DNA from: Eledone cirrhosa
Lineage: Eukaryota
Reading direction: 5' to 3'
DNA: 64,000 bases
NCBI GenBank assembly: GCA_964016885.1
Contig: OZ024757.1
Location: 18,786,001-18,850,000 of the forward strand
Shown: one piece after another, positions 42,199 through 54,932 of the stretch
Layout of the letters: each line of letters begins with the position of its first letter
How positions within the stretch are numbered: position 1 is the first letter of the stretch
Notes under the pieces: model-generated
Seen by the model: only the letters and a program-made list of their open reading frames with translations
Database searches by the model: none
Told to the model about the DNA's origin: nothing
Position numbers and translations under genes: made by a program

Positions 42199-43172
42199 GT
42201 TAAATATGTATATGATGCAACACTGATTCTTTGTTCCCTAATTATATATACACACACACACACACATATACACAGTTGTCCTTGCAGCTGTCACATTCAA
42301 CAGGGTGTCTGTGTTTGCTCACAACTGTACTAGCACCTAAAACTCATAGCAAGATTATAGTACACATTATTAAGTCAAAACTCGATTTGAAATGAAATAT
42401 ACAGTTGTCCCCTGCTATTTATGGGGGTCACATTCCTAGAGCACAAAGAGTGAAAAATCACGAATATTGGACATGGTCCATAAAAATACCTATAAAAGTC
42501 AAAACAACGTAAAATATAGGCCAGCAAATACGGTATATTGTTATTAATAATTTAGTGTTAAAAAGCATTAAAACAATATATATTGCCACGAAAAAAACCA
42601 TTAAAAAATCACAGAACAATTATTAGTTAAGTTCTGAGGGGAAAATTCCGCCAATATACACACTATATATATATATCATCATCATCATCATTTCATTTTA
42701 CGTCCACTTTTCCCTGCTTTCAAGGGTGGGACGGGAACTGATTCTGGCTTGATTTCTACAGCTGGATGCCCTTCCTAACACCAACCTCATTTACAGTGAG
42801 TGCTGGGTGCTTTTTTGCCGTGGCACCTGCACGACCACTTTGCAGTGGAATGATATGGATCCCAGTCCCTATCATCTCATTTCTACAGCTGAGTAAACTG
42901 GAGCAATGTAAAATAAAGAGTCTTGCTCAAGGAAACAACACATCACCCGGTCTGAGAATTGAACTCACAACATTTCGATTGCAACATTTCGATTTCAAGG
43001 CCAATGCTCTAATCACTAAGCCATGTGCCTCCATAATATATATATATATATATACATATATAGGAACAAGTAGGACCCCGTCCTACTCGTTCCTATTACC
43101 CACTCTACTACCCTAAGTATTGAGTACTCTGGTGCGTTATGGTCCATCTGGTTCCTTACCACATTTCCTTCG

Positions 43173-43224
<52 letters not shown>

Positions 43225-51236: not shown

Positions 51237-52527
51237 CACAAGAGCAATAATGAAGTATTCATTCTACTGCCATGGCTATAAAAGTGAGGCTTGTTTGCAT
51301 AATTGCAAACAAATCGAATGTTTTTATTAATATTTCGAAAAACTCAGATTACATTTATCATCATTTCATCATCATTTTACGTCTGCTTTTCCCTGCTTGC
51401 AAGGGTGGGACAGGAACTGATTTCTACAGCTGGATGCCCTTCCTAACACCAACCTCATTTACAGTGAGTGCCGGGTGCTTTTTTTTTTTACTGTGGCACC
51501 TCCACGACCACTTTGCAGTGGAATGATAGGGACCCCGGTCCCTATCATCTCATTTCTACAGCTGAGTAAACTGGAGCAATGTGAAATAAAGTTTCTTGCT
51601 CAAGGAAACAGCACATCACCCGGTCTGAGAATTTAACTCCCAACCTTTCGATTGCAAGGCCAATGCTCTAACCACTAAGCCATGTGCCTCCATATATATA
51701 TATATATGTGTGTGTGTGTATATATATGTGTGTGTGTGTGTGTATGTGTGTATATATATATATATATGTGGGCAAAGGGCAAAGGAGCTCTTAAGAGTCA
51801 ATGGCCATCCGAAATCACCGGGAGAGATGACCCCTTAGCCTTTGTCAAGGCAGAATTCTAGGAGAAGGAAAACTCTGATATAACATCTGCAACCCTGATG
51901 GTATCCAATGATGTTGACTTGTTCTTCTTTTTGGTAAATATCATCTTGGTTAAGAGAGTGGGACTGGCCTTTGCTCACTATAAAAGCTTCACGGCACAGG
52001 CATTGCTTTATATCTGGAGATCTCTCTGCACTTGTCGTCACATGGTACCATGGGCCCAGCACTATGTGTCAATAATTGTCACAAGTGTAGTGTTTGTACC
52101 AGAGTTTTCAAGTCACTAGCTGGACTAAAAAGTCACACTCGTTCAGTGCATCGGTAGGGGTTCTCCTACATGGATATAAAGTAATGGCCGTACTTGAAAA
52201 CGAGTTGGCAGCCACCATTAAGACCTCGGATAGAATGCGTTATGGTATTTGTACCACCTCTTTGTGCTCTCTGAGTTCAAATCCTGCTGAGGTTAACTTT
52301 GGCTTTCATTCTTTCGAGGTCGATAAAAAAAAAAAGGGTTCCAGTCCAGTACTGGGGTCGATTCTTCCTCTACAGAAAAAATCTGCTGTGTTCAGACCTG
52401 AAAAGGGTTGGGCTCCACCAGGTTTATAAGTGCCCTGGACACACTGTATAACGGTGCCACTATAACTCCACAAGGAATTGTGAGATCTTTATCCTTTGTA
52501 TATACTATATATATATATATATATATA

Positions 52528-52960
52528 TGGTAGTGAGACATGGGCAGCAACTGCAGAGGATATGCGATGGCTGGAGAGAAATGAGGCAAGCATGCTCCGT
52601 TGGATGTGCAGTGTCAATGTGCGTGAACGACCCAGCATGGATGTGTTGAGAGAGAAACTGTGTCTGAGAGGGATAGAATGTAGTGTGCGAGAGAGGAGAC
52701 TGAGGTGGTATGGACATGTGATGCGCATGGAGGATGACCGATGGGTGAAGAAGTGCCAGGAAATGCCAGTTGAAGGAAGACGTGGTAAAGGTAGACCACG
52801 AAAAACATGGGCGGGGGTGGTGAGAACAGACCTCAGATCATTGAAGCTCACGGTGGAGATGACGAAGGACCGTGACAAGTGGAGAGATGCTGTGCTGAAT
52901 AAGACCCATCCCACCCTTACAAGCAGGGAAGAGCAGACGTAAAATGATCATGATGATGAC
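52528..52960 (+). mobile_element. RTE LINE 3' end with no long UTR
   Basis: [36 protein letters not shown]; tail nearly identical to the SINE family 1 tail. Confidence 0.92.
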
Positions 52961-53066
52961 AAACAATACTGTTCCTTTGTGTACACCATCTTCACAACAC
53001 TTCTATGTACATATCCTTATATGCATTCTATACACACACACAAATATATATATATATATATATAAT

Positions 53067-53412
53067 ATACGATATTAAACAAATGGAAACTATATTTATA
53101 AAACCATATTTATTTCATTATACATATTTCAGGGATACCATATTAAAAATATGGCATGCCTTCGTCAGATAAAATACAATATATAACCAGTTTTATAAAT
53201 AATTTTGACGTACCATAGTATTTTATCTGACGTAGGCATGCCATATTTTTAATATGGTATCCCTGAAATATGTATAATGAAATAAATATGGTTTTATAAA
53301 TATAGTCTCCATTTGTTTAATATCGTATATCTACTCTAAAAACTTGTCGAGTGCTTTATATCAGTTATAAAATATTTACCTGTTGTAACCCAACAATTTT
53401 AAATAAAACTTT

Positions 53413-53417
<5 letters not shown>
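53067..53417. mobile_element. Family C fold-back element, about 110-bp arms, HHR on both strands
   Basis: Arms 53067-53177 and 53218-53328; HHR 53111-53176(-) CTGACGA and 53219-53284(+) CTGACGT. Confidence 0.8.
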
Positions 53418-53448
<31 letters not shown>

Positions 53449-53451
<3 letters not shown>

Positions 53452-53847
53452 CGAAGGAAATGTGGTAAGGAACCAGGTGGACCATAACGCACCAAAGTAC
53501 TCAATACTTGAGGTAGTAGAGTGGGTAATAGGAACCAGTAAGACCCCGACAGCTGAGCTCAAGCCGTTTCGACGGCTAATTCAGAATTAGCCGTCGAAAC
53601 GGCTTGAGCTCAGCTGTCGGGGTCTTACTGGTTCCTATTATATATATATATATATATATATAACGAAGGAAATGTGGTAAGGAACCAGGTGGACCATAAC
53701 GCACCAAAGTACTCAATACTTGAGGTAGTAGAGTGGGTAATAGGAACCAGTAAGACCCCGACAGCTGAGCTCAAGCCGTTTCGACGGCTAATTCAGAATT
53801 AGCCGTCGAAACGGCTTGAGCTCAGCTGTCGGGGTCTTACTGGTTCC

Positions 53848-53881
<34 letters not shown>

Positions 53882-54275
53882 CGAAGGAAATGTGGTAAGG
53901 AACCAGGTGGACCATAACGCACCAAAGTACTCAATACTTGAGGTAGTAGAGTGGGTAATAGGAACCAGTAAGACCCCGACAGCTGAGCTCAAGCCGTTTC
54001 GACGGCTAATTCAGAATTAGCCGTCGAAACGGCTTGAGCTCAGCTGTCGGGGTCTTACTGGTTCCTATTATATATATATATATATATATAACGAAGGAAA
54101 TGTGGTAAGGAACCAGGTGGACCATAACGCACCAAAGTACTCAATACTTGAGGTAGTAGAGTGGGTAATAGGAACCAGTAAGACCCCGACAGCTGAGCTC
54201 AAGCCGTTTGGACGGCTAATTCAGAATTAGCCGTCCAAACGGCTTGAGCTCAGCTGTCGGGGTCTTACTGGTTCC

Positions 54276-54280
<5 letters not shown>
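53449..54280. repeat. Four tandem family B fold-back elements separated by variable (TA)n
   Basis: About 192-bp units, each with a perfect 57-bp-arm palindrome, e.g. 53526-53640. Confidence 0.92.
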
Positions 54281-54319
<39 letters not shown>

Positions 54320-54932
54320 CAGCATCTACATCAGCCGATTCTATTCAAATCACTTTATTAAACCATTTCAGTTTAGACTGTTACCATGTCTGAGTGAGGA
54401 GAGAATAGATGTTTGTATATGAAAATGTGTGTATATATATTATGTGTGTGTCTGTGTGTATATATTATGTTTGTGTGTGTGAGTATATATATATATATTA
54501 CATGTATGTATGTATGTACAGTATATATATATTATATGTATGTATGTATGTACAGTATATATATATTATATGTATGTATGTGTGTATGTACAGTATATAT
54601 ATATTATATGTATGTATGTGTGTATGTACAGTATATATATATATATATATAATGTATGTATATGTAATGTACAGTATATATATATGTATGTATGTGTGTA
54701 TGTAATGTACAGTATATATATATATTATATGTATGTATGTGTGTGTGTATGTACAGTATATATATGTATGTATGTGTGTATGTACAGTATATATATATTA
54801 TATGTATGTATGTGTGCATGTACAGTATATATATGTATGTGTGTATGTAATGTACAGTATATATATATTATATGTATGTATGTATGTACAGTATATATAT
54901 ATATATGTATGTATGTGTGTATGCAATATACA

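What the first reader, a model, noticed from the sequence alone, without database searches (positions are those of the whole stretch)
53449..54280. Compensatory double change in copy 4 of a tandem palindrome array
Seen: copies 1-3 are identical; copy 4 has C to G at 54210 and the mirror G to C at 54236, which keeps the hairpin perfect while destroying the GAAA core. Two independent mirror mutations are improbable. This implies arm-to-arm correction via a cruciform or template switch, or serial independent insertions into one (TA)n hotspot. The varying (TA)n spacers fit either.
Basis: partly seen in the sequence, partly recalled or inferred. Interest (0 to 1): 0.75.

Follow-up and report, generated by a model that had tools for sequence, protein, structure and literature searches.

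The report
Mirrored mutation in duplicated Penelope stub
Four tandem copies of a short palindromic stub of a very common Penelope-type jumping gene share one insertion scar, and the matching change in both arms of the fourth copy is likely a single mutation copied from one arm to the other, a known kind of DNA repair event.

Summary
Copies 1-3 are identical; copy 4 differs only by C>G at 54210 and G>C at 54236, and both 57-nt arms stay perfect. The unit is a minimal insertion of a Penelope-like retroelement with Hydra-clade motifs (about 4,300 young copies in this genome): two back-to-back element ends in (TA)n. The GAAA is the 3' half of the parent's predicted hammerhead; its 5' half is missing here. 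All four copies share a rare centre (1 of 71) and a rare end (92 hits genome-wide), so one insertion was duplicated. The mirrored C>G occurs at no other locus, so it most likely arose after insertion by arm-to-arm templating. That is rare here: tight palindromes keep unmirrored changes, and most other mirrored variants come from source lineages at insertion. Raw-read confirmation was inconclusive. Earlier scan notes described the family-level mirror insertions on other DNA of this genome. Ordinary parts, modest interest.

The parts
53450..53640 (.). Copy 1 of the minimal Penelope-like insertion: tail plus inverted arm (element sense on the minus strand), 1-nt loop at 53583, direct arm (sense on the plus strand)
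   Evidence: positions 53450-53582 match the upstream pseudo-LTR of full-length element L062 exactly
53450..53525 (-). 76-nt 'tail': element sequence between the two fixed outer ends, present on one side only; in L062 it leads toward the ORF start
   Evidence: tail concept from PMC8557442 and PMC11167929
53662..53852 (.). Copy 2, identical to copy 1
53880..54070 (.). Copy 3, identical to copy 1
54090..54280 (.). Copy 4, arms 54166-54222 and 54224-54280, with the mirrored change
54210..54210 (+). C>G in the inverted arm, at a CpG
54236..54236 (+). G>C in the direct arm; the first base of the GAAA of the parent's predicted hammerhead core
53584..53640 (+). Direct arm: 3' half of a predicted type I hammerhead (stem II 3' strand, GAAA, stem III, GUC, stem I 3' strand); the 5' half is absent; ends in the rare out-of-phase junction shared by all four copies
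53417..53450 (.). (TA)17 target, left flank
53639..53662 (.). (TA)12 spacer
53851..53880 (.). (TA)15 spacer
54069..54090 (.). (TA)11 spacer
54279..54310 (.). (TA)16 target, right flank

Best explanation
The array is four copies of one short palindromic Penelope-like insertion in a TA microsatellite, and the paired change in copy 4 is likely a single substitution copied from one arm to the other after insertion. Step 1 (shown): the unit is two element ends back to back, truncated and joined at the centre. Step 2 (inferred): both ends were primed from the two cut target strands on one source RNA. Step 3 (inferred, strong): the single insertion was duplicated through its flanking (TA)n tracts, whose lengths then slipped. 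Step 4 (inferred): during or after duplication one base changed in one arm of copy 4, and the nascent strand folded back on itself, or the mismatch in an extruded hairpin was repaired, so that the other arm took the mirror base. No function or selection is needed.
For: Parent element: L062 holds the left 133 nt exactly, upstream of a 720-aa RT plus GIY-YIG-type ORF. Centres are made anew at each insertion: they vary widely, and this centre occurs in at least five subfamilies with the tail on either side. One origin for the array: this centre with this tail side is 1 of 71 young palindromes; the rare end has 92 hits genome-wide, 4 of them ours, against 4,328 young tail-arm hits; 0 of 30 rare-end loci examined have this centre. 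Pure duplications exist elsewhere (L395 x5, L396 x2). No source lineage for the variant: 86 hits genome-wide with a single +/- pair, ours; among young-type hits 1 mirrored locus, 17 unmirrored, 6 without partner. Geometry is ideal: 57-bp arms, 1-nt loop, about -74 kcal/mol as DNA. Template-switch correction of inverted repeats is documented (PMC5677150 and 10.1101/2023.04.19.537475, passages).
Against: Arm-to-arm correction is rare in this family. Tight-loop palindromes carry unmirrored non-CpG changes at 66/8173 arm sites against 92/9386 tail sites (P=0.23), with one private mirrored change (L082); upper 95% bound about 8%. Mirrored variants do not build up in older subfamilies, and most trace to source lineages (87C>T mirrored at 18 of 43 loci), some with arms 180-1,400 nt apart. 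The array has no other substitution, so its only event has to be the rare type. Neither the variant nor the copy number was confirmed in reads.
Confidence: 0.6

Rival explanations
1. The variant was born mirrored at insertion, as the family's mirrored variants usually are (one template feeding both arms). The array then holds both states because the insertion intermediate was a heteroduplex that was duplicated before repair, or because the other copies were later converted to the consensus by ectopic copies.
For: Arms agree at subfamily sites in 148 of 163 pairs, most disagreements being single changes. Rare variants are mirrored far above chance: 88A>G at 4 of 12 informative loci, 113A>G at 4 of 18, 87C>T at 18 of 43 loci.
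Against: No second mirrored locus exists for this variant, unlike the lineage variants. It needs extra steps: both arms reverted in the ancestor of copies 1-3, or strand-specific fold-back at birth. Only one clearly subfamily-discordant pair was seen (L145).
Confidence: 0.2
2. Assembly or polishing artefact: a true one-arm variant, or an error, was written into both arms because reads inside a palindrome map in either orientation; or the copy number is wrong.
For: No read support obtained. Fold-back duplications on small contigs exist in this assembly (L393).
Against: A systematic effect would mirror many one-arm variants, yet 61 of 71 informative variant loci are unmirrored, including loci with loops of 0-2 nt. 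Four different TA spacer lengths fit real copies.
Confidence: 0.1
3. Serial independent insertions into one (TA)n tract, copy 4 arriving with its variant in both arms.
For: Serial insertion is the usual source of neighbours: 26 of 27 other head-to-tail junctions join different units.
Against: Centre, tail side, end junction and orientation are all shared; joint chance 1.4-2.9e-4 for one extra insertion; 0 of 30 rare-end loci have this centre.
Confidence: 0.05
4. Two independent point mutations at mirror positions, or selection to keep an RNA hairpin.
For: The site is a CpG and about 34,000 arms give many trials.
Against: Expected chance doubles are 0.011 among young loci and about 0.06 over all subfamilies, assuming 10,000 palindromes. 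Family palindromes tolerate unmirrored changes. No Rfam family reached its gathering score.
Confidence: 0.05

Closest known systems
Hydra clade of endonuclease-bearing Penelope-like elements (Craig et al. 2021, PMC8557442; section 11, passages and two supplement rows read)
   Same: Single ORF with RT then C-terminal GIY-YIG-type domain; DKT, CxCx5C linker, CxxC and CxH near the C-terminus, no GxKF/Y; (TA)n target; 5'-truncated inverted copies; one-sided tail; hammerhead in the pseudo-LTR.
   Different: RWR in place of RWK; tail of about 76 nt against the 30-40 bp described for PLEs; unit about 3 kb. Two end motifs of this family were not found in the paper's supplement, so it is not shown to be Hydra-1_Obim.
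PAc (Poseidon) in vitro mechanism (Frangieh et al. 2024, PMC11167929; parts 1-2 of 4 read)
   Same: Both target strands are cut and extended; two internal start sites define the tail. This fits two fixed outer ends meeting at a variable centre.
   Different: PAc is a different clade with ATT preference; how the two cDNAs are joined was not shown there.
Quasi-palindrome correction by template switching (PMC5677150; 10.1101/2023.04.19.537475; passages read) and concerted palindrome arms (PMC6649704, passages read)
   Same: One event makes both arms of an inverted repeat identical; different perfect forms of one palindrome occur at orthologous loci.
   Different: Here the substrate is a retroelement insertion scar, and the tandem copies give the before and after states at one locus.
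PLE hammerheads with U3-A8 core (Cervera and de la Pena 2014, PMC4209133; passages read)
   Same: Type I layout in the pseudo-LTR, U3-A8 covariation, long helix II; dual motifs on opposite strands were noted there.
   Different: The parent's motif has a 40-plus-nt extension of stem II and a full stem III; the array unit keeps only the 3' half.

Membership tests
Penelope-like element (EN+) | Single ORF with RT and GIY-YIG-type endonuclease contiguous with this end sequence | tested here: met
   L062: 720-aa ORF with YRDD and VIY..YIG motifs directly after the pseudo-LTR that matches the unit exactly. Pfam gave 0 families, so the call rests on motifs.
Penelope-like element (EN+) | Pseudo-LTRs, inverted 5'-truncated copy, one-sided tail | tested here: met
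   L062 and other long loci; tail on one side in the 90 centre-selected loci as far as printed
Penelope-like element (EN+) | Hammerhead motif in the pseudo-LTR | tested here: inconclusive
   Unconstrained fold gives a three-way junction with UUGAGAA, GAA and C unpaired; Rfam found nothing at E<=10; cleavage untested
Hydra clade | DKT motif, CxCx5C linker in place of CX2-5CxxC, CxxC and CxH flanking, no GxKF/Y | tested here: met
Hydra clade | RWK motif | tested here: inconclusive
   RWR at residue 37, a conservative change
Hydra clade | (TA)n insertion preference | tested here: met
   Flanks
Hydra clade | RT phylogeny groups with Hydra references | not tested
   Reference proteins were not loaded; no tree built
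Non-autonomous element or MITE moved as a whole palindrome | Dispersed copies share both ends and the centre by descent | tested here: not met
   Centres vary widely; this centre recurs across subfamilies and on both tail sides; rare end and this centre do not co-occur elsewhere in 30 loci
Template-switch (quasi-palindrome) mutation | Ancestral and derived states both perfect, change mirrored, no outside donor with the change | tested here: met
Template-switch (quasi-palindrome) mutation | Event dated after formation of the palindrome, by alleles or pedigrees | not testable with these tools
   Inferred only from shared junctions of the four copies; no population alleles available

The most novel reading that the evidence does not exclude
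Duplication and mirror-copying were one event: repair synthesis that slipped between TA tracts to multiply the unit also folded back at the perfect hairpin. More widely, tight Penelope insertion palindromes in this genome are edited arm to arm or purged over time. Tight loops make up 36 of 71 unselected young palindromes but 9 of 45 selected for a variant (P=0.001). Thousands of near-identical scars with graded loop sizes would then be a natural genome-wide reporter for template switching in an animal germ line.
Probability: 0.15. Interest if true: 0.55.

Novelty: new member of a known kind. Interest (0 to 1): 0.3.

Why it matters
As a single locus it matters little: a known element class, a TA-driven duplication and one likely template-switch event. 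Its use is as a dated case, since the tandem copies hold the state before and after. The family-level counts are more useful. Minor variants appear in both arms at insertion, which supports both cDNAs coming from one source, an open point in how Penelope-like elements integrate. Later mutations mostly stay unmirrored, which bounds arm-to-arm correction at a few percent.

Tried and rejected
Read check: one run search and two layings. Contigs covered the family broadly; at 100% identity 5 contigs in 2 of 4 runs covered only the right arm with the variant and ran on into longer parent sequence, so they come from other loci. No verdict. Rfam on 53000-54400 gave only hairpin-driven matches below gathering score; nothing on the parent pseudo-LTR. 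Pfam found nothing on the ORF. A templated origin of the variant from the parent's adjacent inner sequence was considered; rejected because C>G (14 hits) is not enriched over C>A (11 hits) at this site. A-to-I editing was rejected for this change, which is G>C in element sense. Pure snap-back from one cDNA as the general insertion route was rejected: either arm can be the longer one and the tail sits on either side of the same centre. Two apparent mirrored pairs at site 119 (L392, L393) were dropped as inverted duplications across TA tracts, and L379 and L391 were left out of the young-only test as older subfamily. Only 30 of 75 site-119 hits and 30 of 86 hits were fetched as loci, plus three pairs picked from the site-119 listing; the rest were judged from coordinates. 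Ten duplicate loci were removed before the counts. mis-parsed two other copies and was redone. One search was out of frame. A sequence look-up of earlier notes found nothing. Paper searches showed no report of mirrored substitutions in PLE insertion palindromes; most subscription papers are not held.

Full report
Observation. The four units start at 53450, 53662, 53880 and 54090. Copies 1-3 are identical over 190 nt; copy 4 differs at 54210 (C>G) and 54236 (G>C), symmetric about 54223. Each copy has perfect 57-nt arms and a 1-nt loop, and the TA runs are 17, 12, 15, 11 and 16 repeats. Two random substitutions would be mirror-complementary within one copy with probability about 2.5e-4.

What the unit is. 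A DNA search of the own genome gave 831 candidates; the 40 scored included 38 dispersed copies identical over 189 nt. A 25-nt arm motif has 34,349 exact hits and the young subfamily of this unit 4,328. Longer copies lead into a full element: L062 holds the left 133 nt exactly, just upstream of a 720-aa ORF with RT and GIY-YIG-type motifs, with a second pseudo-LTR downstream and an inverted truncated copy upstream. The ORF has RWR, DKT, CxCx5C, CxxC and CxH and lacks CX2-5CxxC and GxKF/Y, which matches the Hydra clade as described in PMC8557442 section 11. I had first read it as Neptune-like; the Hydra lead came from earlier scan notes. No tree was built and Pfam was silent. The unit is therefore a minimal insertion: one element end with the tail, inverted, joined to a second end without the tail. 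This layout is described for PLEs (PMC8557442 passages), and in vitro a PLE protein extends both cut strands from two internal start sites (PMC11167929, parts 1-2 of 4).

The GAAA. The parent pseudo-LTR folds without constraints into a three-way junction with UUGAGAA, GAA and a C after GU unpaired, a type I hammerhead layout with the U3-A8 variant reported for PLEs (PMC4209133 passages). Rfam does not detect it. Position 54236 is the G of that GAAA. The array unit lacks the 5' half, so the change is not expected to alter any activity in cis.

How the array arose. Centres are formed anew at each insertion. In 90 unselected young loci they vary widely, and the centre of this unit, 561 hits, occurs in at least five subfamilies with the tail on either side. 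With the tail on this side it is 1 of 71 young palindromes. All four copies also end in an out-of-phase junction that has 92 hits genome-wide, four of them here; 0 of 30 such loci examined have this centre. Independent arrival of a matching unit has a chance of 1.4-2.9e-4 per insertion. Of 33 head-to-tail junctions found by a pattern allowing 6-36 spacer bases, 3 are ours, 27 others were fetched and 3 were not; 26 of the 27 join different units and 1 joins identical ones. Serial insertion is thus the family norm, but this array is a duplication, like L396 (two copies) and L395 (five identical non-palindromic units, spacers 25-73 nt). L395 shows that duplication needs the TA flanks, not the hairpin.

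The mirrored change. The variant motif has 86 hits, and only this locus gives a +/- pair. Among young-type hits at this site, 1 locus is mirrored, 17 unmirrored and 6 have no partner arm. So there is no source lineage for it. Since the four copies descend from one insertion, the simplest order is duplication, one substitution, then copying to the other arm by fold-back synthesis or hairpin mismatch repair. That process is documented in yeast and primates (passages).

Results against. Mirrored variants in the family are mostly not of this kind. Arms agree at subfamily sites in 148 of 163 pairs. 87C>T is mirrored at 18 of 43 loci, 88A>G at 4 of 12 informative loci (one was how I found the site) and 113A>G at 4 of 18, three of these eight with arms 183-360 nt apart. 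These fit minor source elements copied into both arms at insertion. Tight-loop palindromes carry unmirrored non-CpG changes nearly as densely as their tails (66/8173 against 92/9386, P=0.23), so correction is at most a few percent of substitutions (upper bound about 8%). One signal points the other way: tight loops are 36 of 71 unselected young loci but 9 of 45 variant-selected ones (P=0.001), and young tight arms have half the change of loose ones (P=0.02). Their tails show the same trend (P=0.15), so loss of tight palindromes with age explains it at least in part. The samples were selected by different patterns and masked for that, so these rates are rough.

Reads. Logan contigs did not bridge both changed bases or reach the unique flank. 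The variant and the copy number remain unverified. An artefact that mirrors variants systematically is unlikely, since 61 of 71 informative variant loci are unmirrored.

Verdict. A real and correctly described feature, built from known parts: a Hydra-like PLE insertion scar, a TA-mediated duplication and, at about 0.6, one arm-to-arm templated substitution. Searches showed no paper on mirrored substitutions in such scars; earlier scan notes covered the family's mirror insertions but none held all the words of this finding. Names such as RTE and MITE below are recalled, not tested. Interest 0.3.

Noticed in passing
window 935-1133, 2287-2434, 10190-10360, 43080-43174: Four more copies of the same Penelope-like end in this window, of older subfamily type and with other centres.
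   Followed up: partly
window 53065-53330: AT-rich palindrome with 116-nt arms and a 34-nt spacer just upstream of the array; a 25-mer of it occurs in 8 of 427 held loci, so it is a dispersed, MITE-like repeat (label recalled).
   Followed up: partly
window 52484-52942: 152-codon frame resembling the 3' end of an RTE-type LINE protein (family name recalled).
   Followed up: no
L062:3433-5739 (G000:C1:11225500-11232800): Near full-length element of the same young subfamily with an open 720-aa RT/endonuclease frame and no Pfam match.
   Followed up: partly
L395 (G000:C17:24166500-24169200): Five identical non-palindromic units of this family in tandem, TA spacers 25-73 nt, next to an older independent insertion; lies beside an exon-like stretch of a host gene.
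   Followed up: partly
L392 (G000:C4:302882200-302883700) and L393 (C1072): Whole insertions duplicated in inverted orientation across a TA tract, private variants included; L393 is on a small contig and may be an assembly fold-back.
   Followed up: no
unit position 119 (window 53568): Variants at this site are more frequent (75 hits, about 50 being A>G in element sense) than at position 113 (29 hits); it lies in the loop of a small internal hairpin. RNA editing or loop mutability was not tested.
   Followed up: no
family-wide (L171-L200, L248-L307): Both arms stop mostly within about 10 nt of the same point, at the base of the predicted stem II loop, and the centres show short templated repeats suggestive of end joining.
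   Followed up: partly
held loci with the 5' core: Young copies have a U3-A8 core (13) while 9 have C3 with A8, a mismatch, and 6 have other variants.
   Followed up: no
L145: The one palindrome seen whose two arms belong to different subfamilies: two templates or ectopic conversion.
   Followed up: no
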